A stretch of 64,000 nt of DNA from an uncultured bacterium (lineage in GTDB: Bacteria; Omnitrophota; Omnitrophia; Omnitrophales; Aquincolibacteriaceae): assembly GCA_964373045.1 (NCBI GenBank), contig CAYJSI010000003.1:9030-73029 (forward strand). The letters run 5' to 3'. Under the pieces are notes generated by a model. The model was given only the letters and a program-made list of their open reading frames with translations. It had not been told where the DNA came from and did no database searches. A program made the translations under genes and the position numbers. Numbering within the stretch: the first letter of the stretch is position 1; every line of letters starts with the position of its first letter. Below, one piece after another: positions 3,001 to 39,763 of this stretch.

Positions 3001-6000
3001 TGCGAAGTGGCCGGTGGGAAGCTCGCAGACCATTACGTGGACAACCTACGGTAAAGTTCCTCTTGTTGATGTTTACTACTCGGCAAACGGAACCTTCTCG
3101 GACCAGGTGAAAATTAATTCGAGTGCTGTGGCGAATAATCAGGGAACGAATGCTACGGGAGCGACAACGAACCTTCCGTGGACACCTCCCGTGACGCTGG
3201 CGTTAACCTCGACTTATAAGATTCGAGTTGTGGATACCGGAAATAATACTACGCCTGATGCTCCGACCTTTGTCTTAGACAGCAGTTATTCTACCAATCG
3301 GGATTCCGGAGCATTTAAGATTCACGGCGTCATTGATAATGTGGTCCTGACTTCGCCCACCGGTACCACGAAACACAAGTCCTCCGATGCGGCCACCGTG
3401 ACCTGGGATACCACAGGCGACAACCTGAATAGTGTGGATATTGAATACCGGGATGTGACGGGCGCTTACCTTGCGGGCGCTTGGCAGCCGATTCAACTTG
3501 TCCATACCAATACGGGTGTCAATCGCGGAACCAAGAGCTGGACTATCCCGGAAACTTTCCGATCGAGTAATGTTGAAATCCGAGTCAAGCCTGCGGATGG
3601 GACGACAGATGGTTACGATTCAAGCGTTGCCTTGAAGGTCATGCCGAAGATCACTGTGACAACGCCCGTTGCCGCAGAACCTCTCAGTATTGGTACGGCT
3701 TATGATATTAAATGGGATATTCGCGGTGTGACTTCGTCCATCGGTATCCGTTATAAAACAGACGGCAATGCGACCACGAATAATTATCCGTCAGGCGACC
3801 CTTATGAAATTAAAACCGCCGGAGCGCCCTTGGTGCTGGACGGGACAAACTACACCAAAACCGGTACGAATGCGAAATTTCAATGGATCGATGCCGGAAC
3901 AGGCGGCGTGGCCGATACGCCTACGGCTCTTGCTCGTATGATGGTTTACGATCCTCTTGATGACCCTGCTTCGGGCGGTGACGTGTACGGTGTTTCCGCT
4001 AACAACGCCGGTAATTTTGAAATCCGCGGTTTCATCAATGCGAATAACTTCTCCTATTTAGGCGTAACTTACACCGACGATGCAGAATTTGAGGTGTATG
4101 GTGCCACTTTGAATCCAAATCCTGCTGTCATTAATTGGAATGGCGGAGGTACGATTCCGGATGCCATTATCGAATTTTCGACTACGTATGATGGAAGCGA
4201 CCCGACCTCCTTTAATGCAGGTAGAAAATGTCTTGATGGTACGACCGCCAGTCCCTGCCCGACGGTTCCGAACTGGAGCGGTTCAAGTGGCACCAAAACA
4301 TATGACTGGCACGTCCCGGATGTGATTTCCCGCAATACAAGCCCCTACTACATTCGTATCAAGGATCCCAATAACGCCAACGTTTTCGATATCTTCCCGC
4401 GTGGAGCAAGTAACGGTTTCAAAATTAAGTCCAAGCTTGATATAACTTCGCCCGATGGCGGGAACGAATTGCTCGTGGGAAATAAATCTTACAATATTAA
4501 CTGGACCAATACCGGAACAGTCCCGACGGTGGCGCTCGAGTATTCAGGGGACAATTGGCGGCATGAAGATACCAATAACAACAACATCATGGACCCGGGT
4601 GAAGATACCGATCTGGATGGATTCTTAGATCGAGTTCTTTGCGTGGCCGGTGGGACTTATCCAAACTGCAACGCCATTGCCAATGATGGTTCCTTTAATG
4701 GATTCGGCGCCGAAGGGTCCACGAACGGCCCTTGGAAGATTGCAGACGACGGCAAACTGATTCCTTGGAATTGCAACACGCTGCCTGATAACGATCCTAC
4801 TGATGCGAATCATCCTTGCAAAGTTCAAACCGCGAAGGTTCGCGTGCGTGATGGTGGAGATTTGCCGGTGATGAATGCCTCGGCAAGTAATTTTACGGCT
4901 CGTTATGTGGCTAAGAAATGGTATCTCAGAAACTCGGTGACCGGTGCCGATTTAGACAGTATTACGATGTATGAAAACACCATCCATAAAGTGCGGGCCA
5001 ATGGAAGTTTTGCAACACCCGGTATTGTTTCGCCCTATATTATTTGGAGTCCTGCCGGAACCAATTATACGATCGCCTTCTCCAAAGTTGGATTTACCGA
5101 TTATTATGATGCGGCTCAAACGACCACTTTGACGGATCAGGTGACCGGAGCCACGGTTGATCCCATTGAGCCTAATCACGCCATGTTAGATGAACGCCAA
5201 ACGGTTTACTTGAGTGATATCGTGGCCCATAACGACGTGATCAACACGTCTTATCAATATACGACTTCTTCCGGGTCTACCCCTGACAGCATTACCTTTA
5301 AGGTCTGGTACACTCGCGATGGTTTGAACGTGGTCACGACCACCCAAGCTCAACTTCTGGTTTACAATGGAGAGACGCTGCTTTCCAATATGAATTTAAC
5401 CTCCGCCACCCAAAATCCTGCGGGATCCGGCGTTTATACCTTTACCATTAGCAACACAGGTCTTCAAAAGAGTACGAACTACGATGCACGCAATAAGATT
5501 CGATTACCGACGGGAACCGATCTTCAGGGTTTCACGGTTGTGAATATCGGCCAGGCCTCTGATACGCAGACGACTAATGCCAATGTTGCGGTTATCACGC
5601 CCATTATTACCACCAATATTGATGGCAAAATTTCCGATGTCAAAAACGCAATCAGCGATGTCAAAAATGCGCTCGGTGTGACAGGAACCGATACCATTGT
5701 TAGTAAACTCAATAGTGTCCAGCAGGCCATTGAAAACAAAATCGGAACCGATTCTCAAGGTAGAACCTTGATGAAAAAGATGGATGACCAAACTGAAACT
5801 ATTAACACTGCAATCACCGACTTCACTAAAAAATCCGACAAAGCTGTCTTTAAGATGCAAGATGCTATTGCAAGATCTGCGGTTCGGCTGATTATTCCTC
5901 AGACTACCAAGGTTGGAACTAAAGAGACTATCCGTGTAGGGACCGAAGCAAGCGTGACCCCGACCATTGATATCATTTGCCCTAACGGAACGGCGATTGT

Positions 6001-7417: not shown

Positions 7418-7476
7418 CCAACCGTGTCTTGCCTCCCGACCTTTCTCACCCGCAAGCCTCAATAAGTCTCACGGCC

Positions 7477-7722
7477 ATGTTTCACGTCCTCATTATCAAC
7501 GCTCAAATAAAAACCCGGGAAGAAATTCTTTTTGAGGGTCAGGCCAAAAGCGTTGTCCTCCCCGGACAGGATGGTGAATTTGAGGTACTTGATTTCCATA
7601 AACCCATTATCAGCCGACTGAAAAAGGGGGTCATTACGGTCGATAATAAGGACGAATTCCGTATTCGGGACGGGATCGCAAAAATGGATCATCAGGACCT
7701 TGTCATCATGGTCGAGGTATGA
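7477..7722 (+). CDS. atpC: F-type ATP synthase epsilon subunit, short form (beta-sandwich domain only, no C-terminal helical hairpin)
   Basis: ATG at 7477. MFHVLIINAQIKTREEILFEGQAKSVVLPGQDGEFEVLDFHKPIISRLKKGVITV matches the epsilon N-terminal domain pattern (V..PG..GE.GIL..H.P). The 81-aa product lacks the usual ~50-aa inhibitory helices. Stop overlaps the next start (ATGA). Confidence 0.75.
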   Translation: MFHVLIINAQIKTREEILFEGQAKSVVLPGQDGEFEVLDFHKPIISRLKKGVITVDNKDEFRIRDGIAKMDHQDLVIMVEV

Positions 7723-7931
7723 AAAATTTAATCATTATCCTGATTATGGCGCTTGGGATCTTGGGACCCTCCCTCGTGATTGCGGCGGTGGGTTTTTCAA
7801 GCATCATGGCCCTCGGCCGGAACCCTTCTTCGGCTCCCAAGATTATGCTGGCCATGATCATCGCCCTTATTTTTGCGGAGGCCATCGCCGTGATTGCACT
7901 CTTAGTTGTGTTTCAGGTGTTTACGCCATAA
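7719..7931 (+). CDS. atpE: F-type ATP synthase c subunit (proteolipid)
   Basis: 70-aa two-helix hairpin. GRNP loop and conserved carboxylate in helix 2 (ALIFAEAIAVIALL). Confidence 0.85.
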   Translation: MKNLIIILIMALGILGPSLVIAAVGFSSIMALGRNPSSAPKIMLAMIIALIFAEAIAVIALLVVFQVFTP

Positions 7932-7944
7932 AGAGAGGGAAACG

Positions 7945-8694
7945 ATGGTCTTAACCATTATCATTTTTCAGGGGCTGGTTTTTCTCGCCCTCATTCTGAT
8001 CCTGCGGCATTTCATGAAGGGGCATGTGAGCGGAGCCGTGGGCCATCTTCAGAGATTAAACGATGAACTGGTCAAGCAGCAGGTAACCCTTAAAGAAAAG
8101 ATTGCCGCTGCGGAAAAAGAATATGAAACCAAAATGGTCAAGCTCCAACAGGAAGTGACGGCCCGCCAGGCCGAGTCGCGGCAGGCGGCGACCAAGGCCC
8201 TTGAAGAGGCCCGTCAGCGCGCCCTGCAGGAGCGTGAAAAGATTATCAATGAAGCGGTGGAGACGCGGGAGAAGATGCGTCAAGAAATCATGGCAGAAAT
8301 GGAAGAGAAGGCCGTCCAGCATTCCAAGGAAATCATTGTAAGCTCGCTTACCCCACAGGCGCGTCAGGCCATTCATGAGATTTTGGTGCGAGAAGTGGCG
8401 GAGGGGATTCGGGGGGAATCAAAAATGGATCACTTTCAGATTGCCTCCGAGACCGCCGAACTTCGCACCGCGGAGCCGCTTACCAATGAGTGCAAGCAGC
8501 AGATTCAAAAGGCGTTAAAAGAAAAGATTCGCAAAGAGTTTCATTTCAAAGAAGCCTCTGATCCCTCCCTCATTGCCGGTGTGATCCTAAAATTCGGCTC
8601 CTTCGTCATCGATGGCAGTTTGCTTCATCGCCTCGAGGGGGCTTCTGCGCGCGTAAGGCAGGAGACGGTTCGAAAATATCAGGGAAAGGTCTAG
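7945..8694 (+). CDS. atpF: ATP synthase b subunit fused to a C-terminal delta (OSCP) domain
   Basis: ATG 7945 with RBS agagaggga upstream. N-terminal TM helix VLTIIIFQGLVFLALILIL and a long charged coiled coil. C-terminus DPSLIAGVILKFGSFVIDGSLLHRLEG matches the delta-subunit C-terminal signature (..LIGG..I..GD.VIDGSV..RL). The N-terminal delta helical bundle is absent. Confidence 0.8.
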   Translation: MVLTIIIFQGLVFLALILILRHFMKGHVSGAVGHLQRLNDELVKQQVTLKEKIAAAEKEYETKMVKLQQEVTARQAESRQAATKALEEARQRALQEREKIINEAVETREKMRQEIMAEMEEKAVQHSKEIIVSSLTPQARQAIHEILVREVAEGIRGESKMDHFQIASETAELRTAEPLTNECKQQIQKALKEKIRKEFHFKEASDPSLIAGVILKFGSFVIDGSLLHRLEGASARVRQETVRKYQGKV

Positions 8695-8700
8695 CCCCGA

Positions 8701-10227
8701 GTGAATCAGGAATCGTTGATCGTTAATAGTAGTCGTCCCCGCCTCGAGATTCGCGAAGTCGGAGTGGTGAGAGAAATCCGCGAATCCATCGCCCGCGTCG
8801 AGGGGTTACCCTCCGTTTTAAATGGCCAAATCGTTCACTTTGGCTATGAAAACAAAGGGATGGTGATGGGGTTCACCGAAAAAGAAGTTTTGATTTTGAT
8901 GTTTGGCGGGAAAGAAAAAATTAAGGCGGGGGATGAAGTGTGGAGCCGGGGAGAACCCTTTACGCTTCCGGTAGGCGAAAAATTCTTAGGCCGGATTGTC
9001 AATGCCCTGGGTGATCCCGCCGACGGAAAGCAAGCCATTATCCCGGACGCCTACCTTCCGGCCTTTAGTGTTGCCCCGGGGGTGATGGAGCGAAAACCCG
9101 TTTGCCAGCCGCTGGATACCGGGATCAAGATTTTGGATGCCATTATCCCGGTGGCCAAAGGCCAGAGACAGCTTTTGATCGGGGATCGCATGACGGGCAA
9201 GACCACCATTGCTGTCGATACGATCTTGAACCAAGCGACAAGAAATGTAGTCTGCATTTATTGCTGCATCGGAAGGAGCTATTCCAACCTTCTTAAGACG
9301 CTCGAGATCTTGAAAGAAAAAGGCGCGTTAGGCTATACCATTATCGTGGCGGGCATTGCCTCTGCGTCCGTAGGAGAACAGTTTCTTGCTCCCTACACGG
9401 CCTGCTCGCTTGGAGAATATTTTATGCAGCGCGGGCGCCATGTCTTTGTTACCTTCGATGATCTGACCAAGCACGCCTGGGTTTACCGCCAGCTTTCCCT
9501 CCTCCTGGAGCGTCCTCCCGGCCGCGAGGCCTATCCCGGTGATATCTTTTATATTCACTCTCAGCTTGTGGAACGGGCCGGGCAACTGAGTGATCAAAAT
9601 GGCGGCGGGTCGATGACCTTTTTTCCCATTTGCGATACCTTGCAGGGCGATGTGACGGGCTACATTCAAACGAACCTCATTTCCATGACCGACGGGCAAA
9701 CCGTGGTAAGTTCTGCCCTGTTTAACCAGGGGATCAAGCCGGCCATTGATTTCGGCCTCTCGGTTTCTCGTATTGGGAACAAGGTGAGCGTGCCGGCCAT
9801 GAAAAAATTGGCGGGGAAACTCCGCCTTGAATACCTGCAATATAAAGAACTTGTTCGCATGACACAGCTTAAGACCACGGTCTCAGATGAGGCCTCGGCC
9901 CGAATCCGCCGCGGGGAAGTCATTACCGAACTTCTCATGCAAAACAAGCAGGAACCCTCGCCCATCGAGGAACAAATTCTTCATTTATATGCCTTGAAGC
10001 AAGGCATTTTAGATCCCTTATCCGGCCAGGCCCTTAAAAAATTTAAAAGAGAGATCCTTTCTTACGCCCGGCAGGAATTTCCAAATTTAATCAAGGAACT
10101 TTGCACGTCTTGGGATCTCACGGATAGCGTCAAAAAAGGGATCGAGGATCTGTTTCAAAGTTATTTTGCAGCTCCGAAGGGAGGCGCCCAGGAAAGTACG
10201 GTTAAGGCCGATCGGGCCGCTTCGTAA
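8701..10227 (+). CDS. atpA: F-type ATP synthase alpha subunit
   Basis: GTG start. P-loop GDRMTGKTTIAVDTILNQ. Alpha-type signature throughout. 508 aa. Confidence 0.9.
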   Translation: MNQESLIVNSSRPRLEIREVGVVREIRESIARVEGLPSVLNGQIVHFGYENKGMVMGFTEKEVLILMFGGKEKIKAGDEVWSRGEPFTLPVGEKFLGRIVNALGDPADGKQAIIPDAYLPAFSVAPGVMERKPVCQPLDTGIKILDAIIPVAKGQRQLLIGDRMTGKTTIAVDTILNQATRNVVCIYCCIGRSYSNLLKTLEILKEKGALGYTIIVAGIASASVGEQFLAPYTACSLGEYFMQRGRHVFVTFDDLTKHAWVYRQLSLLLERPPGREAYPGDIFYIHSQLVERAGQLSDQNGGGSMTFFPICDTLQGDVTGYIQTNLISMTDGQTVVSSALFNQGIKPAIDFGLSVSRIGNKVSVPAMKKLAGKLRLEYLQYKELVRMTQLKTTVSDEASARIRRGEVITELLMQNKQEPSPIEEQILHLYALKQGILDPLSGQALKKFKREILSYARQEFPNLIKELCTSWDLTDSVKKGIEDLFQSYFAAPKGGAQESTVKADRAAS

Positions 10228-10229
10228 CG

Positions 10230-12517
<2,288 letters not shown>

Positions 12518-12524
12518 GGAAAAA

Positions 12525-12962
12525 ATGGCCGAACGATTAGGAGAAACGTTTATACGGAAAAAGCTGGTGACGGCGGAGCAGCTTGAGGCGGCGTTGCAGG
12601 AGCAAAGTTATACCGGCGAATTTCTGGGCCAAATTTTAGTGAGGCTTGGTTTTGCCCAGGAAGAAGAATTATTGAAGGTCTTGGCGGAGCAATTCAATAC
12701 AAAATTTGTAAGCCTGGAGAAAGTGCCTGTGAATCCCACGGTGATCAAGCTTGTTCCGGGGAGTCTTGTCTTTGAACACGGATTTCTTCCCATTGAAATG
12801 CGCTCAGGAGTGCTTTTGGTGGCGATATCGAATCCGCTGGATGTGTGGCCTTTAAGTGTTCTTCAGGAAAAGCTGGGCCTCATCGAGGTTAGGACCGTTC
12901 TCGCCAAAAAATCCGATATCCAACAAGCCATTAAAAAATATTACGGCCCGAACCCCCTTTAA
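12525..12962 (+). CDS. Stand-alone GspE/PilB N-terminal (N1, GSPII_E_N-like) domain protein, 145 aa
   Basis: ATG 12525 with gagga RBS. Sequence parallels the N1 domain of the downstream ATPase (LGEFLGQILVRLGF.QEEEL vs IGKILVRKGYLREEDL; ends ..QQAIKKYYG vs ..ANAIRKYYG). No ATPase core. Confidence 0.7.
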   Translation: MAERLGETFIRKKLVTAEQLEAALQEQSYTGEFLGQILVRLGFAQEEELLKVLAEQFNTKFVSLEKVPVNPTVIKLVPGSLVFEHGFLPIEMRSGVLLVAISNPLDVWPLSVLQEKLGLIEVRTVLAKKSDIQQAIKKYYGPNPL

Positions 12963-12977
12963 AGCCTAGGAACGAGA

Positions 12978-14714
12978 ATGACAGACTGGTTTGAAGATGT
13001 CCTTCAAAAAAAGAAATTAGTCAGCGCCGAAAAGGTCCGCGAGGCCCAGGATGAGCAGAAAAAAAGCGGGGAGCCGATCGGGAAAATTTTAGTCCGCAAA
13101 GGTTACCTTCGCGAAGAAGATTTGGCGAGGACGCTCGCCGAAAAATTTCAGATGTCCTTTGTGCGCTTCAGTAAATTTCTCATCGCCAAGGAAGTGGTGG
13201 ATAAAGTCCCCGCCAAATTTGCCCTCCACTACAAAGTGGTTCCCATTAAATTTCACGACAATGTGCTGACTCTGGCCACCTCAGAACCCCAGGATATCCG
13301 GCTCCTCGACGAAGTCCGCATGGCCCTCAAGTCGCAATATCGCGTTCAGGCGGTCGTGGCGACGGAGTCTGACATCGCGAACGCCATTCGAAAATATTAC
13401 GGTCTCGGGGCCGAGACGGTGGAAGGCATGATTGAGCACGCTCAGGATAAAGGGGCCCCTCCCCAAGAAGAGTTGATCGATGAGAAAGTCGAGGACATCG
13501 AGAAGCTTGCGGGCGATGCCTCCATTGTGAAGCTGGTCAATCAAGTGATGCTTGAGGCCAACCGGAAGCGGGCGACCGACATTCATATCGAGCCTTACCG
13601 GGAAAAACTGCAGCTGCGATACCGCGTGGACGGTATCTTGTACCCCTCTGAAATTCCGGAAAGGATTCGCCGCTTTCTCCCCGCCATTATTTCCCGCATC
13701 AAGATCATGTCGAATCTTAACATTGTCGAAAGGCGTCTGCCCCAGGACGGCCGGGCCTCCATCAAAATCGGCCAGCATAAAATGGATCTACGTATCTCGA
13801 TCCTTCCGACGCCCCACGGTGAAAGTGTGGTGATCCGCATCCTTCCCACCTCCATGCTCTTTCGACTGCAGGCGCTGGGCTTAAGCGGCCGCCACTTAAA
13901 AATTTTAGAGGAGCTTATCGAAAAACCCTACGGCATTATTTTTGTGACGGGGCCGACGGGAGCGGGAAAATCGACCACCCTTTATGCCTCGCTTTCTAAA
14001 ATCAATACCTCGGAAAGAAAGATTATTACGATTGAGGATCCGATCGAGTACGAGCTGGAAGGAATCACGCAGATCCAAGTCATGCCCCAGATCGGATTGA
14101 CCTTTTCTCAGGGGCTCCGCAGCATGCTGCGTCATGATCCGTATGTGATGATGGGGGGGGAGGTGCGGGATTTTGAGACCGCGGAACTTGCCATCCGCAT
14201 TGCCTTAACGGGTCATCTGATTTTTTCTACGCTTCATACGAATGATGCGGCTAGCGCGGTGACCCGTCTCCTGGATATGGGTGTTGATCCTTTTCTTATT
14301 GTTTCTTCAGTGGAGTGCTTTATTGCTCAGCGTCTGGTCAGGCTCATCTGCGAGAAATGTAGGCGCGAGGATAAGCGGGGGCTCGCCGATGAGCTCAGGC
14401 GTGAGCTAGAAGAAATACAGAAAGCAGAGGGGATTAAGGAGCTTCAGCTTTCTGTGGGAGAGGGATGCGAAGAATGCAATATGAGCGGGTTTAAAGGCCG
14501 CACCGGTATCCATGAGTTTTTGGTACTCAGCCGCTCGATTAAAGAAATGATCATGAAGAAGGTCTCTGCCGATGACATCAAACGCCTTGCGGTGCAGCAG
14601 GGCATGAAGACGCTTCGCCAGGATGGCTGGAGAATAGTCCTCACGGGCCTGACCACGGTGGATGAAATCCTGCGCGTGACTCAAGTGGCTGCCGAAGAAG
14701 AAAACGTTGCCTAA
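12978..14714 (+). CDS. gspE: Type II secretion / type IV pilus assembly ATPase (GspE/PilB family)
   Basis: N1 domain, Walker A GPTGAGKSTTLYA, Asp/His boxes, tetracysteine zinc motif CEKC...CEEC. 578 aa. Confidence 0.9.
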   Translation: MTDWFEDVLQKKKLVSAEKVREAQDEQKKSGEPIGKILVRKGYLREEDLARTLAEKFQMSFVRFSKFLIAKEVVDKVPAKFALHYKVVPIKFHDNVLTLATSEPQDIRLLDEVRMALKSQYRVQAVVATESDIANAIRKYYGLGAETVEGMIEHAQDKGAPPQEELIDEKVEDIEKLAGDASIVKLVNQVMLEANRKRATDIHIEPYREKLQLRYRVDGILYPSEIPERIRRFLPAIISRIKIMSNLNIVERRLPQDGRASIKIGQHKMDLRISILPTPHGESVVIRILPTSMLFRLQALGLSGRHLKILEELIEKPYGIIFVTGPTGAGKSTTLYASLSKINTSERKIITIEDPIEYELEGITQIQVMPQIGLTFSQGLRSMLRHDPYVMMGGEVRDFETAELAIRIALTGHLIFSTLHTNDAASAVTRLLDMGVDPFLIVSSVECFIAQRLVRLICEKCRREDKRGLADELRRELEEIQKAEGIKELQLSVGEGCEECNMSGFKGRTGIHEFLVLSRSIKEMIMKKVSADDIKRLAVQQGMKTLRQDGWRIVLTGLTTVDEILRVTQVAAEEENVA

Positions 14715-14719
14715 TTACC

Positions 14720-15976
14720 ATGCCCCGGTTTATTTATCGCGCCAAAAAGGGCCCTACGGAGATTGTCGAAGGTGAAATTGAGGCCGAAAATGAGGATGCG
14801 GCGCTTGGAAAAATCGCGGCCCTTGGCCTTGTCCCCGTAAAATTAGAACCCATCTCAAAGGAGTCTCCGAGCCCCTCCGCGGCTCAGCCCACAGAATCAG
14901 AGGAGGGCGTTCGGCTCTCTTTTGCCACGCGGGCGAAACTTCGAATTTCGCATCGGGATTTCACCCTCTTCACACGCCAATTTTCTATCCTGCTCAAGGC
15001 GAATGTCCCGCTCCTAAGAATCTTTCAGGTTCTTCAAACGCAGACGCAAAGCGAAAAATTTAAATTGGCCCTTCGCGATATGCAAACTTCGCTTCGTGAA
15101 GGAGGGAGTCTATCAGAGGTTCTGGGCCAGTATAGCCGTGTTTTCTCCCAAATTTTTATCAGCATGGTTCACGCCGGTGAAGTAAGCGGAACACTCGACA
15201 AAGTCCTCGGCCAGCTTGCCCTCTTTTCAGAAAAAGAAGCAGAAATTCGTTCCCGCGTACAGTCTGCCCTGATTTATCCTTTGTTTTTGCTTCTGGTGGG
15301 GATCGCGACCATTTTTATCCTGCTTACCTTTGTCATGCCGCGGTTGATGGGTCTTTTTACCGATTTGGGGACTGAGCTGCCTTTACCCACACGCTTGATT
15401 ATCCGGGTAAGTAAGTTCTGCCAAGCCTACTGGCTGATTATTTTGGGGGCGGTGGGAGCCCTCAGTGCCTGGTTACGCACCGCCGGGCTCTCGGCAGGTC
15501 AGAAAAAAGCGTTGGATCGCCTGATGCTCCGCCTGCCTTTGGTGGGACGATTGATCGAAAAGGCGGAGGTGGCGCGATTCCTCCGCTCTCTCGAGCTCCT
15601 CTATGAAAACGGAATCCCTCTTTTCCGCGCGGTTGAAGTGGCGGGATACACTATTGCCAACGCGGTCATCCGCGAAGAAATTGAGAAGATTCCTACACGT
15701 TTAGAAGGCGGCTCCTCTCTTGCAAAGAGTCTGGAGGGGGCCTCGTACATCTCAAGCTTTGTGACCAATATGGTGTCTGTGGGAGAGGAATCCGGAGAGT
15801 TAGGGACCGCCGTCCGAGAAGTTGCTTCTTATTATGAGCAAGAGACTGATCAATTTGTCAAGATTGCCACCTCTCTCGTCGAGCCTTTCATGATCCTCGT
15901 GATCGGTGTTATCGTTGGATTTATTGTCATTGCGATGCTCCTTCCTATTTTCGAAATCCATGTCCTCGCGCAGTAA
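14720..15976 (+). CDS. gspF: Inner-membrane platform protein GspF/PilC
   Basis: N-terminus MPRFIYRAK..G...G.IEAENEDAALGKIAALGLVP is typical of GspF. Duplicated T2SSF domains with TM segments. 418 aa. Confidence 0.9.
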   Translation: MPRFIYRAKKGPTEIVEGEIEAENEDAALGKIAALGLVPVKLEPISKESPSPSAAQPTESEEGVRLSFATRAKLRISHRDFTLFTRQFSILLKANVPLLRIFQVLQTQTQSEKFKLALRDMQTSLREGGSLSEVLGQYSRVFSQIFISMVHAGEVSGTLDKVLGQLALFSEKEAEIRSRVQSALIYPLFLLLVGIATIFILLTFVMPRLMGLFTDLGTELPLPTRLIIRVSKFCQAYWLIILGAVGALSAWLRTAGLSAGQKKALDRLMLRLPLVGRLIEKAEVARFLRSLELLYENGIPLFRAVEVAGYTIANAVIREEIEKIPTRLEGGSSLAKSLEGASYISSFVTNMVSVGEESGELGTAVREVASYYEQETDQFVKIATSLVEPFMILVIGVIVGFIVIAMLLPIFEIHVLAQ

Positions 15977-16388
15977 TGAACAGGGCTTTACGCTCCTTGA
16001 AGTTTTAATCGCCATCGTTATTTTTGCGGGCGGTGTCGTGCTTGTCATCGAAGGCATGGGGCGAAGCCAGCAGGCCTTTGCCATCGCGCAGAATCTTATT
16101 AGGGCTGTCGAGATCGGTGAAAGTAAGATTATGGAGTCCAAGCTCAGCCTTTTTCAGGATCACAAGCTCTCGAGCGGCTTAACACGGGGGGATGAAAAAT
16201 GGCTCGGCCGGGAATTTGAATGGACAAAGGAAACGCGTCCTCATCGGGATCTTAAACTCAAAGATACTACGAAATTGAATAAAGTGGATGTGGCCGTCAC
16301 CTGGCGGGAAGGCCAGCGCCATAACGACCTCCTCTTTTCAGCCCTTTTTTTAAATCGCGAAAAAAAGGAAAATCTTCAAAGTTCATGA
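15960..16388 (+). CDS. Minor pseudopilin (prepilin-type N-terminal cleavage/methylation domain)
   Basis: ATG 15960 overlaps the gspF 3' end by 17 nt. Class III signal QGFTLLEVLIAIVIFAGGVVLV (G|FTLxE). Confidence 0.75.
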   Translation: MSSRSNEQGFTLLEVLIAIVIFAGGVVLVIEGMGRSQQAFAIAQNLIRAVEIGESKIMESKLSLFQDHKLSSGLTRGDEKWLGREFEWTKETRPHRDLKLKDTTKLNKVDVAVTWREGQRHNDLLFSALFLNREKKENLQSS

Positions 16389-17029
16389 ACACCCGTCGTT
16401 TTTCAAAAGGGTTTACTTTGATCGAGACCTTGCTCGCAATCACGCTCTTTGCGGTTGTCATGGCGGCAAGTTACCGCGTCTTCGCCATGGGAATTCAAAT
16501 CTGGCAGAGGACGCAGGGTTCCTACACGGCAGAGCGCAAGGCCGTTTTGGCCCTGGAAAAGATGATCCAAAAGGTGCGCGCGGTTACTCGAATTGAAAAA
16601 ATCGACAAATTCTCAGGCAAGGATTCCCTTTATGAAGGCGATCAGGACGGGTTTACGCTGCCGGCGACGGTGGAAAATTCAAATGCCGTTTATAAGCCGA
16701 TTTTGCAATTTGGACGAATCGGGTTCTACTGGGACCGAAACCGCGACCAGCTCTGCGAAACTCAAGAAAGCGCCACCGACCTTTACCTCCGCCGCAAACC
16801 GCCTTGCAGAGTGCTGGCAGAATATGTCAAAAAGGTTGACTTCCGGTACTGGCTTTACAGAAGTCTTGGCGAGAGCTACTCCTGGTATGATGACTGGGAT
16901 TCTTCCGACGGCCTTCCTCAAGCGATTCAGGTAACGCTTGAAATTGAAATACCCGTCGATAAAACCGCAGGTTCTCTGGAACGCCGTTATCAGCGCATGA
17001 TTTGGGTGCCGGTGGGAGGAAAAACGTGA
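16385..17029 (+). CDS. Minor pseudopilin (GspJ/GspI-like)
   Basis: Prepilin motif KGFTLIETLLAITLFAVVMA. ATGA overlap with the upstream gene. Confidence 0.7.
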   Translation: MNTRRFSKGFTLIETLLAITLFAVVMAASYRVFAMGIQIWQRTQGSYTAERKAVLALEKMIQKVRAVTRIEKIDKFSGKDSLYEGDQDGFTLPATVENSNAVYKPILQFGRIGFYWDRNRDQLCETQESATDLYLRRKPPCRVLAEYVKKVDFRYWLYRSLGESYSWYDDWDSSDGLPQAIQVTLEIEIPVDKTAGSLERRYQRMIWVPVGGKT

Positions 17030-18048
17030 AAGAGCGGGGAAGTGTTTTAATTGCCGTGCTCTGGATCCTTGGGATGCTTACGGTTTTTACGGTGGCCGTC
17101 AACCGGCGTGCCTCGGCCGAACTTGTTTTCGGGCAGTGGGTGAAGGATCGTGTCCTTTCGCGGCTTTTAGCCGAAAGCGGAATCGAGCGCGCCCTTTTGG
17201 AACTTCAATCCGATCCCTTTAAGACCTTTGATGCGTGGAATGAGTCTTGGGGTTCGAATCCGGATGCCTTTCAGGAGATTGGGCTCGGGGCGGGGAGCTT
17301 TTCTGTGATCTGCGAAATGGGGCAAAGAGATTCTTCAAAAAAAGAAGCATCCTCTCACCGCTACGGCGTCTGTGATGAGGCCTCGCGCCTGAACATCAAT
17401 ACGGCCTCGGAAGAGACCTTAAGAAATCTTCTCCTGGCCATTTTTCCCAATCTTGATGCCAAAAAAGCAACTGCCATCGTGCAAGCTATCCTCGATTGGC
17501 GGGATCCGGATGACCAGGGGCTTACTTTCGGCGCGGAGGCCCGTTATTACCATGAATTAAAGGATCCCTATGAACCCCGTAACGGTCCTTTTCAGTCGAC
17601 GGACGAACTTTTGATGGTGCGAGGGATTGAAACTGAATTTTTCAATCAAATAAAGGCGTTTGTGACCGTCTATAGCCAGGGCAAGGTGAATTTCAATACT
17701 GCCCCAACGCCTGTTTTACAGGCCTTGGGCCTCAGCCTGGCATTGGCCGAAAAAGTGGCCGCCTTTCGCTTGGGCGCGGACGGAAAGGAAGGGACCAAGG
17801 ACGATGAAGTTTTCCAGCACATTGATGGGATTACCCCCGCCTTGAGCGTGGCCGGCTCATTTTCTTCGGAAGATTTTCAGCAAATCGCAAACGCCATTGC
17901 CAAAGGGTACGTGACGGTGAATTCCTCTGTGTATAGAATTCAATCAATCGGCCGTTTAATTAAGCAGGATAAAGCGCTCGACACGCTGATCCTCTGCGTC
18001 GTTAATCGGGACGGGACCGTCCTTTATTGGCACGAAGGAGAAGATTGA
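17026..18048 (+). CDS. gspK: GspK-like minor pseudopilin
   Basis: GTG 17026 overlapping the previous stop, GGAGG RBS. N-terminus RGSVLIAVLWILGMLTVFTVAV typical of GspK. ~340 aa. Confidence 0.7.
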   Translation: MKERGSVLIAVLWILGMLTVFTVAVNRRASAELVFGQWVKDRVLSRLLAESGIERALLELQSDPFKTFDAWNESWGSNPDAFQEIGLGAGSFSVICEMGQRDSSKKEASSHRYGVCDEASRLNINTASEETLRNLLLAIFPNLDAKKATAIVQAILDWRDPDDQGLTFGAEARYYHELKDPYEPRNGPFQSTDELLMVRGIETEFFNQIKAFVTVYSQGKVNFNTAPTPVLQALGLSLALAEKVAAFRLGADGKEGTKDDEVFQHIDGITPALSVAGSFSSEDFQQIANAIAKGYVTVNSSVYRIQSIGRLIKQDKALDTLILCVVNRDGTVLYWHEGED

Positions 18049-18055
18049 TTTTTCC

Positions 18056-19612
18056 ATGGTAAAATTTTCTATTCCAAAATTTTCATTCCCGAGACTTCCC
18101 TTTCCGACTCCGGGATTGGCGAAGAAGGAAAATGTCCTGATCCTTGAAATTGGCGAGGAATGGATCAAGCTTGCCGGGATCGAGGGGGGGGTTAAGAAAG
18201 AAACGCTGACTTGTCTCGGGGCCGAAGCCGTTCCGGGGCTCTCCGAGCTCGAGAGCAGTCAGAAGATCGGTGCCTTTTTAAAATCGAAATCCTTCAAGCC
18301 GGCTCACGTCGTAATGAGTCATCCGGCGCACCAATTAACGACACGCATCCTCGCCCTTCCTTCCACAGATCCCAAGGAGATCAAAGATATCTTGGACCTT
18401 CAGGCGGTCAAGCAGACTCCCTACGCCAAAGAAGAAATCACGCTTGGTTTCCGCATCCTGGGTAGCGACACGTCCGGTTACTCCCGCGTTTTACTTGCCA
18501 TCTCTCATCGCGATGTTGCCCTCCGGTACTTTCGCATTGCTGAACTCGCCAATCTTCCCGTCGAAAAAATGACCCTTTCCATAGAAGGAACCATCGGCTG
18601 GTATCGGCGCACCAGGGCTAAAGAGGCGGTGGAGGGAGGCCAGGTGGTACTCTTGCTCGATATGGATTGGCTCAGCACTGACTTTCTCATTTTTCGGGGG
18701 GAGAATATACTTTTTACGCGAAGTCTTGGGCTCGGCGCGAAACACCTCAAAGAGGGAGGGGCCACACGCGAAGGAGAACTTCTGCGCGAAATCCAACTTT
18801 CCATGGAGTCCGGCCAAGCGGAATTGAAGGGGGAGTGCATCACCCATGTGGCCTTGGCGGGGATGGGGGAGTCCTTTAAAGATCTTTTGGCCGCGCTCTC
18901 GCGGGAGCTTAATCTTCCCTGTGAAGTCGTGGGGTCGCTACCGGCGATCAAAGAATCACTTTCCTTTGCAAGCGGAGTGGACATTCCTCAGGAAGCTGGC
19001 TCCTTTTCTTCCATCCTCGGCTTAGCCCTCGATCATGCCGCAACACCGATTAACCTTGTTCCCTCCGAAATCGAAGTGCGTCGTGAGCTCGAAGGCAGGG
19101 CGAAGGATCTCGGGTTTTTCGGAACCTTGTTATTGATCTTGATCATGCTCATTTCGGTAAGCAGCTTCATTAAAATTTACAAGCGCAGCCAGTATCTTCA
19201 TACCCTTCGCCGGGAGTATGCCTCCATCGAAAAATCCGCCCTTGAGGTTGAGCGCGTGGTCGCTAAGATGAAATTAGCACAGGAGCAAATGAGCGCCCGA
19301 GCTGGTTTTCTGGATGTTCTGCAAGATGTCAGCCATGTGCTCTCGAACAATACCTACCTTCATTCCATTCAGTTTCAAGATCAAGACAGGGCCGTAACTT
19401 TTCGAGGGGTCTCGGAAGAAATGTCTTCCGTTTTTCAGCTTCTTTCGACTCTGGAGGGAACACCTCACCTTGAGGCTGTCAAAACAAGAAACGTCACCAA
19501 GACCAAAATGGATGAAAAGGATATGTCCGAGTTTGAGATTGTGGCCACGATTACCGAGCCAGCGAATGAGACGGCCATGAAGGCATCGACGGTACCTGCG
19601 GGAATACCATGA
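18056..19612 (+). CDS. GspL-like / PilM-PilN fusion-type assembly protein (cytoplasmic actin-like domain, one TM helix, periplasmic domain)
   Basis: 518 aa. Internal TM LGFFGTLLLILIMLISVSSFI at ~aa 345-365. Cytoplasmic N-terminal region of PilM/GspL length. Gene context. Confidence 0.55.
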   Translation: MVKFSIPKFSFPRLPFPTPGLAKKENVLILEIGEEWIKLAGIEGGVKKETLTCLGAEAVPGLSELESSQKIGAFLKSKSFKPAHVVMSHPAHQLTTRILALPSTDPKEIKDILDLQAVKQTPYAKEEITLGFRILGSDTSGYSRVLLAISHRDVALRYFRIAELANLPVEKMTLSIEGTIGWYRRTRAKEAVEGGQVVLLLDMDWLSTDFLIFRGENILFTRSLGLGAKHLKEGGATREGELLREIQLSMESGQAELKGECITHVALAGMGESFKDLLAALSRELNLPCEVVGSLPAIKESLSFASGVDIPQEAGSFSSILGLALDHAATPINLVPSEIEVRRELEGRAKDLGFFGTLLLILIMLISVSSFIKIYKRSQYLHTLRREYASIEKSALEVERVVAKMKLAQEQMSARAGFLDVLQDVSHVLSNNTYLHSIQFQDQDRAVTFRGVSEEMSSVFQLLSTLEGTPHLEAVKTRNVTKTKMDEKDMSEFEIVATITEPANETAMKASTVPAGIP

Positions 19613-20148
19613 AGATCCTGGACAAACTTTCAGCGCGGGAAAAGAAGATAGCTTATACGGTCGTTGCCCTCCTCATCCTCGTCTTTGGTTATCGGGGAAT
19701 TTGGCGCCCCTTCATCGAAAAATTGACGTCTATGGATGGAGAAATCTTTACGATGCAGCTTAAGCTTCGCAAGGCCAAGACCTTTATCCTCCAGCGTGAG
19801 CAGGTGATGGAGGAGGCCAAGAAATATCCCAACCTCGAGCAAATGGATGCAGGTTCGGACGAGCAGGAGATTGCGCGGCTTTTAAATTTGCTCGAGCAAA
19901 AAGCCCGCCGCCTAGGGGTCTCAATTTCAGATGTGAAGCCGAACCAGCTTTTGTCCGATAAGATATCGAAGCGGTTTATGGTCGAGTTGAATGCAGAATG
20001 TGAACTTGGCCAGCTTGTGGACTTCATCTATGAGCTCCAAAATGCCCCCGAGCGTCTTAAGATTGATCGTATTGAGGTGGCTACCAAAGAGGATAAATCA
20101 GCCGTCCTGCGTTCTTCATTTGTGGTCACGAGAGTTGTGGTTAAATGA
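19609..20148 (+). CDS. GspM/PilO-like bitopic membrane protein
   Basis: N-terminal TM IAYTVVALLILVFGY followed by a periplasmic domain. Position after the GspL-like gene. ATGA overlap. Confidence 0.45.
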   Translation: MKILDKLSAREKKIAYTVVALLILVFGYRGIWRPFIEKLTSMDGEIFTMQLKLRKAKTFILQREQVMEEAKKYPNLEQMDAGSDEQEIARLLNLLEQKARRLGVSISDVKPNQLLSDKISKRFMVELNAECELGQLVDFIYELQNAPERLKIDRIEVATKEDKSAVLRSSFVVTRVVVK

Positions 20149-20164
20149 ACATGAGGAGGTTTCG

Positions 20165-20599
20165 ATGTCACACGACGTGTTAAAAAATTCGGCGAGGGGT
20201 TTCACTCTCATCGAAATTCTTCTTGTGGTTATTATTATAGGCATTCTTGTTTCCCTTGTGGCCCCACGGCTTGCGGGTCGCTCTGAGGAGGCGCGCAAAC
20301 AGGCGACGCGAGCAGATATCGATGGCGGGCTTTCCCTTGCGTTGGACCTCTATGAAGTCGATAACGGACGATATCCCCATCAGTTGGATGATCTTGTGAA
20401 CAAACCTTCCGGTGCCCCCAACTGGAAAGGCCCTTATTTGAAAAAAGGTCTTTCACCAGATCCGTGGGGAGGTGATTATCGTTATCGCATGCCCGGATCA
20501 AATAACACCACCGGCTATGATCTTTATTCCGTAGGACCCGACAAGCAGGAAGGAACACAAGATGACGTGGTGAACTGGAAAGTTGTGGCACCCTATTAA
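20165..20599 (+). CDS. gspG: Major pseudopilin GspG
   Basis: ATG 20165 with gaggagg RBS. RGFTLIEILLVVIIIGILVSLVAPR, LDLYEVDNGRYP, GPYLKK, DPWGGDYRY, YDLYSVGPD all match the GspG family. Confidence 0.9.
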   Translation: MSHDVLKNSARGFTLIEILLVVIIIGILVSLVAPRLAGRSEEARKQATRADIDGGLSLALDLYEVDNGRYPHQLDDLVNKPSGAPNWKGPYLKKGLSPDPWGGDYRYRMPGSNNTTGYDLYSVGPDKQEGTQDDVVNWKVVAPY

Positions 20600-20964
20600 T
20601 GGAAAAGAAAATTTTAGTCATTGATGACGAACTCTCTATTGGGGAACTGATCAAAGATTTCCTGGACGGATCAGGCTATACGACCTTCATTGCCACCAAT
20701 GCGATGCAGGGGATTGAAATTGTCAGGGCGGAAAGGCCCGCGTTGGTCTTGGTGGATATCCTGATGCCGGAGATCAGCGGGCTGGAATGCCTGAAACGGA
20801 TCAAGCAATTGTATCCCGAGACGATCGTCATTATCGTGACGGGGTTGCAGGATGAGCAGGTGGCCAAACAAGCCATCCGGCAAGGGGCCTATGATTACAT
20901 CCTTAAGCCCTTTAACCTTGACTACCTTGAAAAGAGTATCCTCAGCAGGATCTTCCCTTCTTAA
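20599..20964 (+). CDS. Single-domain CheY-like response regulator receiver
   Basis: ILVIDDE...LVLVDILMP...IVTGL...KPF receiver motifs. 121 aa. TAATG overlap with gspG. Confidence 0.85.
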   Translation: MEKKILVIDDELSIGELIKDFLDGSGYTTFIATNAMQGIEIVRAERPALVLVDILMPEISGLECLKRIKQLYPETIVIIVTGLQDEQVAKQAIRQGAYDYILKPFNLDYLEKSILSRIFPS

Positions 20965-21775: not shown

Positions 21776-21905
21776 ATAATCATTATCGCCCTCTTCAAGG
21801 ATTAGTTGATAGGGCTTGTGGGACCCCTGGGTATTCTTAAGATTTGGCCGGAATTCGCCGATGATTAGGGGGAACTCAAGGAAGGAGTGTCTCTTGAAGC
21901 AGAAA

Positions 21906-23129: not shown

Positions 23130-23151
23130 TTTCCTCAGGGGATGATGGCCC

Positions 23152-39689: not shown

Positions 39690-39763
39690 GGGCCCGTAGC
39701 TCAGTGGTAGAGCAGGCGACTCATAATCGCTTGGTCGCACGTTCGATCCGTGCCGGGCCCACC
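39690..39763 (+). tRNA. tRNA-Met (anticodon CAU; elongator-type, but tRNA-Ile2/lysidine cannot be excluded)
   Basis: Manual cloverleaf. 7-bp acceptor GGGCCCG/CGGGCCC with a paired 1:72. D-arm GCTC-AGTGGTA-GAGC. Anticodon loop CTCATAA. T-arm GCACG-TTCGATC-CGTGC. Discriminator A. CC partly encoded. Confidence 0.9.

What the first reader, a model, noticed from the sequence alone, without database searches (positions are those of the whole stretch)
12525..12962. Stand-alone GspE/PilB N1-domain paralogue immediately upstream of the full-length secretion ATPase
A 145-aa protein consisting only of a GSPII_E_N-like domain precedes GspE, which has its own N1 domain. The two N1 sequences are clearly related but diverged. 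In T2SS the N1 domain docks the ATPase to the cytoplasmic domain of GspL. A free N1 copy could compete for that docking site or act as an adaptor/regulator of the machine. This is not a standard T2SS/T4P component.
Basis: partly seen in the sequence, partly recalled or inferred. Interest (0 to 1): 0.55.

Follow-up and report, generated by a model that had tools for sequence, protein, structure and literature searches.

The report
Free c-di-GMP sensor domain beside GspE

Summary
Window 12525-12962 (+) encodes a 145-aa protein that is a complete MshEN domain (PF05157, 64 bits). It is 37% identical to the N-domain of the GspE/PilB ATPase that starts 15 nt downstream.

It is a real gene, not a split one. 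At least 164 protein clusters of 140-170 aa exist. Spacing and frame relative to gspE vary between genomes, and dN/dS is about 0.06-0.14.

The free protein keeps both 24-residue binding motifs, and both key glycines are present in 116 of 120 relatives. All 39 closely related GspEs lack the motif-I glycine and the Leu29 equivalent, the same positions that are changed in the non-binding XpsE.

In 17 of 17 loci with a full-length free MshEN, the adjacent GspE is degenerate. Omnitrophota GspEs without one are mostly intact (63 of 72). Some relatives also fuse a PilZ domain to GspE or carry two free copies.

Best reading: a trans-acting c-di-GMP sensor subunit of this T2SS/T4P-like machine. Binding and the partner protein are inferred, not shown. 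A rival target is the F1 beta subunit, which in 14 contigs is fused to an MshEN_N module.

Verdict: a new variant of a known kind.

The parts
12525..12962 (+). Free MshEN gene: 145 aa with an N-terminal four-helix bundle and a C-terminal T2SSE_N1-like subdomain, and no ATPase domain
   Evidence: The AF2 model has pLDDT 89.5. Foldseek's best match is 5HTL, MshE-N with c-di-GMP, at TM 0.83-0.88 and rmsd 2.1 A.
12516..12519 (+). GAGG ribosome-binding site, 5 nt before the ATG. It overlaps the end of the atpD stop codon (12515-12517).
   Evidence: Read directly from the sequence.
12534..12605 (+). c-di-GMP motif I (aa 4-27), RLGETFIRKKLVTAEQLEAALQEQ. The R, L, G, L, L and Q positions are kept; position 10 is K instead of G.
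   Evidence: Motif definition from Wang 2016. Family census.
12606..12620 (+). 5-residue spacer SYTGE (family consensus xxTGE)
   Evidence: The spacer length matches the MshEN definition.
12621..12692 (+). c-di-GMP motif II (aa 33-56), FLGQILVRLGFAQEEELLKVLAEQ. Position 1 is F instead of R. A hydrophobic residue here is tolerated, and even favourable, in PilF GSPII-B.
   Evidence: Neissner 2024.
12831..12857 (+). Family-specific loop NPLDVWPLS (aa 103-111) in the C-subdomain. N103, W108, P109 and S111 are invariant in the near family. ATPase-borne domains have D, R, x and D at these positions.
12978..14714 (+). GspE/PilB-type ATPase, 578 aa
   Evidence: T2SSE 420.6 bits, MshEN 73.2 bits.
12987..13058 (+). 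Degenerate motif I of GspE's own N-domain (WFEDVLQKKKLVSAEKVREAQDEQ). Changes: Gly to Glu, Arg to Trp, Leu29-equivalent to Gln.
   Evidence: In VcMshE the G11L mutant binds no c-di-GMP and L29A binds 28-fold more weakly.
7474..12517 (+). F-type ATPase genes directly upstream in the same tight array: epsilon, c, b/delta fusion, alpha, gamma, beta. There is no subunit a gene.
14720..20599 (+). Rest of the T2SS/T4P-like cluster: GspF, two or three pseudopilins, GspK, the PilM-PilN fusion (18056-19612), GspM and GspG
20599..20964 (+). Single-domain response regulator that closes the array
   Evidence: It is conserved in the same position in relatives.

Best explanation
The gene encodes a free, cytoplasmic MshEN-type c-di-GMP receptor. 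It belongs to the T2SS/T4P-like machine encoded downstream and acts on that machine in trans.

In this Omnitrophota lineage the secretion ATPase still has an MshEN-like N-domain. That domain kept the T2SSE_N1 docking subdomain but lost the first half of the c-di-GMP site. The free paralogue kept the complete site and evolved its own conserved surface (NPLDxWPxS).

The inferred mechanism has three steps. First, the free protein binds c-di-GMP through its two 24-residue motifs. Second, in the liganded or unliganded state it binds the ATPase or its PilM-PilN platform. Third, this switches assembly or activity of the motor. The job done in cis by MshE and PilB N-domains would then be done by a separate subunit.

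What is shown: domain identity, predicted fold, conservation of the motifs, conserved synteny, purifying selection, and the complementary degeneration of the adjacent GspE.

What is inferred: c-di-GMP binding itself, the partner protein, and whether the effect is activating or inhibiting.
For: 1. Fold and family. PF05157 scores 64 bits. The AF2 model (pLDDT 89.5) superposes on c-di-GMP-bound MshE-N and on PilF GSPII-B at TM 0.77-0.88.

2. Ligand-site residues. Of the 14 motif positions I tabulated (the six key residues plus the turn glycine of each motif), 12 are kept in the window protein. In 120 free MshEN proteins, 59 of them under 50% identical to this one, both glycines occur in 116 and the other four have alignment gaps there. 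The Leu/Leu/Gln positions are nearly invariant.

3. The neighbour has lost the site. Among GspEs at least 69% identical to the window's, the motif-I Gly is present in 0/39 and a hydrophobic Leu29 equivalent in 0/39. In VcMshE, G11L abolishes binding and L29A weakens it 28-fold. The non-binder XpsE carries G11V and L29R.

4. Co-occurrence. In 17/17 loci with a full-length free MshEN upstream, GspE lacks the motif-I Gly. Other Omnitrophota GspEs have both glycines in 63/72 cases, and the four such loci inspected (L011, L012, L023, L024) have no free copy.

5. A prediction that held. GspEs chosen only because their motif was degenerate, P0271 and the PilZ-fused P0282, turned out to have one and two free MshEN genes upstream, all with intact motifs.

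6. Complementary retention. The N-subdomain of the free protein is closer to solo GspEs than the paired GspE's is (44% against 39%). For the C-subdomain the order reverses (34% against 44%).

7. c-di-GMP wiring of the same operon elsewhere. REC-GGDEF genes (GGEEF plus an RxxD I-site) head the operon in L024 and L026. C-terminal PilZ domains with RxxxR and D/NxSxxG motifs are fused to GspE in another clade.

8. It is a real gene. The gap to gspE ranges from -11 to +179 nt and the frame offsets are 0,2,2,2,1,2,2,0. dN/dS is 0.06-0.14.

9. The gene stays with gspE when no atp genes are upstream (L021).
Against: No binding assay exists. Two motif positions deviate: motif I position 10 is K instead of G, and motif II position 1 is F instead of R.

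No GGDEF, EAL, HD-GYP or PilZ gene and no c-di-GMP riboswitch was found in the 64-kb window. No GGDEF domain was found in the fetched flanks of the loci that carry a free MshEN. A c-di-GMP source in this genome is therefore not demonstrated.

Motif II of the paired GspE is mostly intact (Gly in 31/39), so residual binding by GspE is not excluded.

The 17/17 association may reflect only one to three evolutionary events, because the loci are related.

There is one counter-example: GspE P0247 lacks both glycines and has no free MshEN nearby.

The NJ tree does not place the free family as sister to the paired GspE N-domains (0/200 bootstraps), so a simple duplication followed by subfunctionalisation is not proven.

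The partner is unknown. AtpD-MshEN_N fusions point to the F-type ATPase as an alternative target.
Confidence: 0.55

Rival explanations
1. The free MshEN works with the operon's F-type ATPase rather than with GspE, or bridges the two. It would bind or regulate the F1 beta subunit in response to c-di-GMP.
For: In 14 metagenome contigs (at least 3 sequence variants), AtpD is 62% identical to the window's and carries an in-frame C-terminal MshEN_N module of about 65 aa with intact motifs. gspE follows directly. This is a Rosetta-stone type link.

In 13 of the 14 loci with atpD in view, the free gene starts 122 nt or less after the atpD stop; in L053 the gap is 219 nt. In L001 it is separated from gspE by 179 nt.

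The atp and gsp genes are interleaved in relatives, with gspE between atpD and atpC.

F1-beta homologues FliI and HrcN are published c-di-GMP targets (Trampari 2015, PMC4591828).
Against: In the fusion lineage GspE keeps its own intact motifs. The AtpD-borne module therefore does not replace GspE's sensor, whereas the free full-length protein always coincides with GspE motif loss.

The fused module lacks the C-subdomain and is as similar to its own GspE (about 54% by hand count) as to the free family. It looks like an independent partial duplication.

In L021 the free gene sits next to gspE with no atp genes upstream.
Confidence: 0.2
2. The protein is a ligand-independent decoy that competes with GspE's N1 domain for the cytoplasmic PilM/GspL-like platform and so damps machine activity.
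For: It has a complete T2SSE_N1-like C-subdomain (Pfam match over aa 57-142). It is co-transcribed with the machine, judging by the tight gene array.
Against: The best-conserved feature across the whole free family is the c-di-GMP site, not the N1 subdomain. The N1-like subdomain has diverged from ATPase-borne ones at conserved positions: D to N103, R to W108, D to S111. That argues for a different surface. A pure decoy would not need intact ligand motifs.
Confidence: 0.1
3. It is a general c-di-GMP receptor or buffer whose target is unrelated to the neighbouring genes.
For: Stand-alone MshEN proteins exist in unrelated contexts, for example P0141 in L028 beside TLC, Omp85 and Prok-JAB genes. 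PA3740 of P. aeruginosa is a published ATPase-less MshEN protein.
Against: Its position immediately upstream of gspE is conserved in all 17 loci examined, across about 30% sequence identity. The neighbour's motif has degenerated in step.
Confidence: 0.1
4. It is an artefact: a gspE gene with tandem MshEN domains split by a nonsense mutation or sequencing error, or read through the TAA stop. The two ORFs are in the same frame in this window.
For: In the window, 12525 and 12978 are in frame and separated only by TAA plus 5 codons. (MshEN)2-T2SSE architectures exist in Clostridia.
Against: In 8 genomes the frame offset is 0,2,2,2,1,2,2,0. The spacer ranges from an 11-nt overlap to 179 nt, and each gspE has its own start codon. 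No fused tandem-MshEN form appears among the 120 listed GspE homologues.
Confidence: 0.02

Closest known systems
MshEN domain of Vibrio cholerae MshE (PDB 5HTL) and GSPII-B of Thermus thermophilus PilF (PDB 8PDK)
   Same: The two-subdomain fold is the same (TM 0.77-0.88). The tandem 24-residue motifs and 5-residue spacer are the same. Motif II starts with a hydrophobic residue, as in the nanomolar binder PilF GSPII-B.
   Different: Those domains are covalently attached to the ATPase they regulate. This one is a separate polypeptide, and the ATPase next to it carries a c-di-GMP-blind copy. The C-subdomain has a family-specific NPLDxWPxS loop.
Pseudomonas aeruginosa PA3740 (MshEN - divergent T2SSE_N1, no ATPase; Wang et al. 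2016, Suppl. Table 4)
   Same: It is an ATPase-less MshEN protein. In Wang 2016 its c-di-GMP binding is listed as experimentally established rather than predicted. It is a precedent for the stand-alone architecture.
   Different: Its sequence relationship to this family was not tested here, so orthology is not established. It is reported from beta- and gamma-proteobacteria and linked to swarming. The papers read here do not describe it as lying in a gspE operon or beside a degenerate cognate ATPase.
FimX-PilZ-PilB complex of Xanthomonas citri (PDB 7LKM/7LKO; Llontop et al. 2021, PMC8389850)
   Same: The logic is the same. In that complex the c-di-GMP receptor is FimX, a protein separate from the ATPase PilB; it is linked through PilZ, which binds PilB's N-terminal domain. 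That domain has an MshEN-like fold (Foldseek hit to the model here, TM 0.75).
   Different: The sensor there is an EAL domain joined through a PilZ adaptor. Here the sensor is a paralogue of the ATPase's own N-domain.
XpsE/GspE N-domain of Xanthomonas (PDB 2D27/2D28)
   Same: It models the state of the window's GspE N-domain: an MshEN fold that has lost c-di-GMP binding through changes at G11, L29 and other positions.
   Different: No companion free MshEN is described for XpsE in the papers read here.
EpsE N1 - EpsL cytoplasmic domain complex (PDB 2BH1)
   Same: The C-subdomain of the free protein is homologous to the N1 domain that docks GspE onto GspL (weak Foldseek hit).
   Different: The free protein has diverged at conserved N1 positions. 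The platform here is a PilM-PilN fusion, not GspL.

Membership tests
MshEN domain (Pfam PF05157; c-di-GMP receptor of Wang et al. 2016) | Profile HMM match above the curated threshold | tested here: met
   64.1 bits against a cutoff of 23.1. The Pfam model covers aa 57-142 only, so the ligand-binding bundle had to be assessed separately.
MshEN domain (Pfam PF05157; c-di-GMP receptor of Wang et al. 2016) | Two-subdomain fold: an N-terminal four-helix bundle plus an alpha/beta T2SSE_N1 subdomain | tested here: met
   The AF2 model has pLDDT 89.5 and pTM 0.80, with helices 5-11, 17-30, 34-40 and 46-56 followed by an alpha/beta unit. Foldseek against 5HTL gives TM 0.83-0.88 and rmsd 2.1 A over 138-140 columns.
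MshEN domain (Pfam PF05157; c-di-GMP receptor of Wang et al. 2016) | Two 24-residue motifs (R/K/L)LGxx(LVI)(LVI)xxG(LVI)(LVI)xxxxLxxxLxxQ joined by a 5-residue spacer | tested here: met
   Motif I: RLGETFIRKKLVTAEQLEAALQEQ. Spacer: SYTGE. Motif II: FLGQILVRLGFAQEEELLKVLAEQ. Deviations are position 10 of motif I (K), position 6 of motif I (F), position 1 of motif II (F) and position 12 of motif II (A). Both third-position glycines, all four Leu and both Gln are present.
MshEN domain (Pfam PF05157; c-di-GMP receptor of Wang et al. 2016) | Measured c-di-GMP binding | not testable with these tools
   Needs ITC or DRaCALA on purified protein.
GspE/PilB/MshE secretion ATPase | T2SSE (PF00437) ATPase domain with Walker motifs | tested here: not met
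   The protein ends at residue 145, and PF05157 is the only Pfam match. It is not an ATPase.
GspE N1 domain as GspL/PilM docking module | Conservation of the N1 subdomain surface shared by ATPase-borne domains | tested here: inconclusive
   The fold is kept. However, C-subdomain identity to solo GspEs is 34%, against 44% for the paired GspE, and D/R/D positions are replaced by N103, W108 and S111. Docking was not modelled.
Stand-alone MshEN proteins (PA3740 type) | MshEN_N plus an N1-like subdomain with no further domain | tested here: met
   145 aa and a single domain. The architecture is listed in Wang 2016 Suppl. Table 4.
Stand-alone MshEN proteins (PA3740 type) | Sequence orthology to PA3740 | not tested
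Split gene / pseudogene fragment of a tandem-MshEN ATPase | Same frame and constant junction in relatives, or fused full-length relatives | tested here: not met
   Frame offsets are 0,2,2,2,1,2,2,0 and gaps range from -11 to +179 nt. No fused form appears among the 120 listed GspE homologues.

The most novel reading that the evidence does not exclude
The free MshEN, the AtpD-fused MshEN_N modules and the PilZ- or MshEN-bearing GspEs could all be parts of one c-di-GMP-gated machine. In that reading an F1-type rotary ATPase is physically coupled to a T2SS/T4P-like apparatus. Its genes are epsilon, c, b/delta, alpha, gamma and beta, with no subunit a gene in the operon. The free MshEN would be the second-messenger-controlled coupling subunit between the two ATPases. 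The machine might handle the giant surface proteins encoded immediately upstream in these predatory or episymbiotic nanobacteria.
Probability: 0.1. Interest if true: 0.85.

Novelty: new variant of a known kind. Interest (0 to 1): 0.55.

Why it matters
How c-di-GMP binding to the MshEN/N1 domain changes the behaviour of T2SS and type IV pilus motors is still poorly understood (review PMC11656802).

This lineage has done the domain-separation experiment naturally. The ligand-binding half-function and the docking half-function sit on two different polypeptides that can be purified, mutated and mixed separately. That makes the question directly testable.

The family also adds a trans-acting MshEN subunit to the list of PilB/GspE cofactors. 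It shows at least four interchangeable ways of wiring c-di-GMP into one orthologous machine: an intact cis MshEN, a cis PilZ, one or two free MshEN proteins, and an AtpD-fused MshEN_N.

It places second-messenger control at the heart of the conserved giant-gene / ATP-synthase / T2SS-like superoperon of Omnitrophota. These organisms are uncultured and thought to be host-dependent or predatory.

Tried and rejected
1. Split gene or stop-codon readthrough. I suspected this because the two ORFs are in frame in the window. It is rejected by the variable frames and spacers in 8 genomes.

2. Alternative start at 12405 (185 aa). Rejected because all homologues start at MAERxGE.

3. Search for c-di-GMP enzymes, receptors or riboswitches in the window. 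Pfam scans of the ORFs of at least 150 aa that look like genes, plus several shorter ones, and an Rfam scan found none. A tblastn with GGDEF and PilZ queries against all fetched loci found them only in L024, L026 and L027.

4. Origin of the free copy. NJ with 200 bootstraps gives two robust clades that are not sisters. The donor lineage is unresolved, and long-branch effects are likely.

5. The 2-kb insert between atpG and atpD in L008 and L010 was checked as a possible GGDEF gene. It is a PAS histidine kinase.

6. Promoter and terminator scan of 7.3-21.2 kb. Counts were not above shuffled expectation, so it is uninformative.

7. The metagenome scan with the divergent alignment A2 failed because no conserved stretch was available. 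It was repeated with A1.

8. The listing of cluster members on other single-domain MshEN hits returned almost no names.

9. I first took the 61-aa 'free' MshEN_N hits for mini-ORFs. ORF tracing showed they are C-terminal extensions of AtpD.

Full report
**Observation.** Window 12525-12962 (+) is an ATG-initiated ORF of 145 codons. A GAGG ribosome-binding site lies 5 nt upstream, and the ORF starts 7 nt after the stop codon of atpD. Pfam assigns it to PF05157, now named MshEN and formerly GSPII_E_N, at 64.1 bits against a cutoff of 23.1. The next ORF, 12978-14714, is a 578-aa GspE/PilB ATPase with its own MshEN (73 bits) and a T2SSE domain (421 bits). The two N-domains align over their whole length at 37% identity, E = 1e-27.

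**It is a real, conserved gene.**
- A protein search found 35 clusters of 130-151 aa containing PF05157 only, at 55-100% identity. The named ones are all Candidatus Omnitrophota.
- A profile built from divergent members found 164 clusters at E <= 1e-5, nearly all 140-170 aa single-domain proteins.
- In the window the ORF and gspE happen to be in the same frame, separated by TAA plus 5 codons, so I tested for a split gene or readthrough. Across 8 genomes the frame offset is 0,2,2,2,1,2,2,0 and the spacer runs from an 11-nt overlap to 179 nt. That excludes both.
- For the closest pairs dN/dS is 0.06-0.14, with dS saturated.
- The family is about as conserved as gspF in the same loci: 59-65% against 56-63% identity to the window.

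**Context.** The gene sits in a tight, operon-like array that is syntenic in every relative examined. The order is:
- a giant ORF
- atpC, atpE, a b/delta fusion, atpA, atpG and atpD
- the free MshEN gene
- gspE and gspF
- pseudopilins and gspK
- a PilM-PilN fusion
- gspM and gspG
- a single-domain response regulator

Giant genes next to T2SS-like loci in Omnitrophota are already published (West-Roberts et al. 2023). Neither that paper nor the other Omnitrophota papers I searched mention the MshEN gene.

PF05157 is the MshEN c-di-GMP receptor domain. Wang et al. [quoted passage not shown] Neissner et al. 2024 showed that the first position may be K or a hydrophobic residue, and that this correlates with nanomolar affinity.

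The window protein reads RLGETFIRKKLVTAEQLEAALQEQ - SYTGE - FLGQILVRLGFAQEEELLKVLAEQ. It keeps 12 of the 14 motif positions I tabulated (the six key residues and the turn glycine of each motif). The two exceptions are K in place of the turn glycine of motif I, and F in place of R at the start of motif II.

The Pfam model covers only aa 57-142, so I checked the N-terminal bundle through structure. An AF2 model (pLDDT 89.5, pTM 0.80) superposes on c-di-GMP-bound MshE-N (5HTL, TM 0.83-0.88, rmsd 2.1 A) and on c-di-GMP-bound PilF GSPII-B.

**The neighbour has lost what the free copy keeps.** GspE's own N-terminus reads DWFEDVLQKKKLVSAEKVREAQDEQ. The motif-I glycine is Glu, the Arg is Trp and the Leu29 equivalent is Gln. 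I tabulated the key columns in four groups.

| Group | Motif-I Gly | Hydrophobic Leu29 equivalent | Motif-II Gly |
|---|---|---|---|
| Free MshEN proteins | 28/28 | 29/29 | 29/29 |
| GspEs at least 69% identical to the window's (a clade set apart by a gap in identity down to 61%) | 0/39 (E25, K11, T, S, I) | 0/39 | 31/39 |
| GspEs with a C-terminal PilZ | 0/9 | 8/9 | 0/9 |
| Remaining Omnitrophota GspEs | 63/72 | 69/72 | 69/72 |

In VcMshE, G11L abolishes binding and L29A weakens it 28-fold. The natural non-binder XpsE carries G11V and L29R among its changes.

In the wider free family of 120 sequences, 59 of them under 50% identical to the window protein, both glycines are present in 116. The other four have gaps at those columns. 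The Leu/Leu/Gln columns are nearly invariant. The ligand site is thus the most conserved feature of the free family and the least conserved feature of the adjacent ATPase's N-domain.

**Co-occurrence and a prediction test.** Seventeen loci carry a full-length free MshEN directly upstream of gspE: the window, L001-L004, L007, L008, L010, L021, L022, the JGI locus of P0027, L025, L027, L029, L031, L053 and L057. In all 17 the GspE lacks the motif-I glycine.

Loci whose GspE has intact motifs (L011, L012, L023, L024) have no free copy.

I then chose GspEs from the distant group solely because their motif looked degenerate:
- P0271 (55% identical) has a 158-aa free MshEN upstream.
- The PilZ-fused P0282 has two free MshEN genes upstream. 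All three free genes have intact motifs.
- P0247, which lacks both glycines, has none. This is one counter-example.

The loci are phylogenetically related, so the 17/17 may represent only one to three independent events.

**Complementary retention.** I split the domain into its two subdomains.
- In the N-subdomain (ligand bundle), the free protein is closer to solo GspEs than the paired GspE is: 44% against 39%.
- In the C-subdomain (T2SSE_N1, the part that docks GspE to GspL in the T2SS), the order reverses: 34% against 44%.
- The free family has its own invariant N103, W108, P109 and S111, where ATPase-borne domains have D, R, x and D.

This fits a division of labour, with sensing on the free protein and docking on the ATPase. 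An NJ analysis supports each group as a clade (200/200 and 191/200) but never as sisters (0/200). The evolutionary route is therefore unresolved.

**c-di-GMP wiring of the same operon in relatives.**
- In L024 (a complete genome) and L026, a REC-GGDEF gene sits at the head of the atp-gsp operon; in L024 it has a GGEEF active site and an RxxD I-site.
- In another clade GspE carries a C-terminal PilZ domain with canonical RxxxR and (D/N)xSxxG motifs.
- West-Roberts et al. report PilZ genes and GGDEF domains associated with Omnitrophota giant genes.
- In the window itself I found no c-di-GMP enzyme, PilZ or riboswitch. A source of the ligand in this particular genome is not shown.

**A finding that cuts the other way.** In 14 metagenome contigs with at least three sequence variants, the F1 beta subunit (62% identical to the window's AtpD) carries an in-frame C-terminal MshEN_N module of about 65 aa with intact motifs. 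gspE follows directly. I first misread these as mini-ORFs.

This fusion is a Rosetta-stone hint that MshEN modules in this operon may act on the F-type ATPase. F1-beta homologues FliI and HrcN are known c-di-GMP targets (PMC4591828). Two points count against this as the main role of the free protein. In the fusion lineage GspE keeps its own intact motifs. And in L021 the free gene stays with gspE where no atp genes lie upstream. I keep it as the main rival at 0.2.

**Comparison with known systems.**
- The protein is a member of the MshEN domain family by HMM, fold and motif. Ligand binding is untested.
- It is not a GspE/PilB ATPase.
- The stand-alone architecture has a published precedent in P. 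aeruginosa PA3740 (Wang 2016 Suppl. Table 4). Other single-domain MshEN proteins exist in unrelated contexts.
- The closest functional analogue is the Xanthomonas FimX-PilZ-PilB complex, in which the c-di-GMP receptor FimX is a separate protein linked through PilZ to PilB's N-terminal domain (PMC8389850; PDB 7LKM appears among the fold hits).
- A 2024 review of PilB cofactors does not list free MshEN paralogues.

**Verdict.** I rate this a new variant of a known kind. It is a large, conserved family of trans-encoded MshEN sensors paired with sensor-blind GspEs in the Omnitrophota atp-gsp superoperon. Interest is 0.55, because it offers a natural separation of the sensing and docking functions of the MshEN/N1 domain. 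Confidence that the best explanation as a whole is right is 0.55.

Noticed in passing
window 7474-12517, continuing to 20964; L023, L024, L026: F-type ATP synthase genes (epsilon, c, b/delta fusion, alpha, gamma, beta) form one tight array with the T2SS/T4P-like genes, and no subunit a gene is in the cluster. In other Omnitrophota, gspE lies between atpD and atpC, so the two gene sets are interleaved. None of the three Omnitrophota papers checked ties ATP synthase genes to the T2SS-like locus.
   Followed up: partly
L035-L043, L045, L048, L065, L070, L074 (e.g. L037:1091-2686): The F1 beta subunit AtpD (531 aa) carries an in-frame C-terminal MshEN_N c-di-GMP-motif module of about 65 aa. It is joined by the linker EPFHRPEPSTHP and followed by a gspE with intact motifs. 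I know of no described ATP synthase beta subunit fused to a c-di-GMP-binding module.
   Followed up: partly
window 2-7417 and 52851-63998: Two giant ORFs run off the two ends of the window, at least 2471 aa and at least 3716 aa. The first has no Pfam hit and a C-terminal TM helix. The second has only an Inositol_P-like segment (aa 2197-2447). Relatives have 6,823- and 11,903-aa ORFs in the same upstream position.
   Followed up: partly
L027:6033-9157; L053:2492-5046; P0270, P0281, P0282, P0294-P0303: A clade of orthologous GspEs has the architecture degenerate MshEN - T2SSE - C-terminal PilZ, with canonical RxxxR and D/NxSxxG motifs. L027 additionally has two tandem free MshEN genes upstream, which makes three c-di-GMP modules for one ATPase.
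   Followed up: partly
L024:2329-3225; L026:1062-1973: REC-GGDEF diguanylate cyclase genes (L024's has GGEEF with an RxxD I-site) lie directly upstream of atpE at the head of the atp-gsp operon, in the Omnitrophota that lack the free MshEN.
   Followed up: partly
L026:7001-8725 (P0247): This GspE lacks both motif glycines (IKIKQML and ELLKIIL) but has no free MshEN or PilZ nearby. It is the one exception found to the compensation pattern.
   Followed up: no
window 18056-19612; cluster 12978-20599: A single 518-aa PilM-PilN fusion takes the place of GspL. No secretin (GspD) or prepilin peptidase gene is present in the cluster.
   Followed up: no
L008:6656-8530; L010:6770-8638; JGI 3300071358 locus: A PAS histidine kinase (about 622 aa), or in the JGI contig a REC protein, is inserted between atpG and atpD inside the ATP synthase gene set.
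   Followed up: partly
L001:10424-10602 and 12380-12736: In Ca. Taenariivivens baikalensis the free MshEN and gspE are separated by a 179-nt GC-rich spacer. A 23S_rRNA_IVP-family gene is inserted between gspE and gspF.
   Followed up: no
window 21816-25152: Wza-like (Poly_export/SLBB) and Wzc-like (Wzz/GNVR/AAA_31) polysaccharide export genes follow the T2SS-like cluster. The Wza-like gene is conserved in that position in relatives.
   Followed up: no
window 39690-39761 and 41960-42346: A tRNA gene and a bacterial class A RNase P RNA (184.7 bits).
   Followed up: no
L028:6001-6477 (P0141): A 158-aa stand-alone MshEN protein sits in a context unrelated to secretion, beside TLC ATP/ADP translocase, Omp85, Prok-JAB and Toluene_X genes. 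Free MshEN proteins are therefore not restricted to gsp operons.
   Followed up: no
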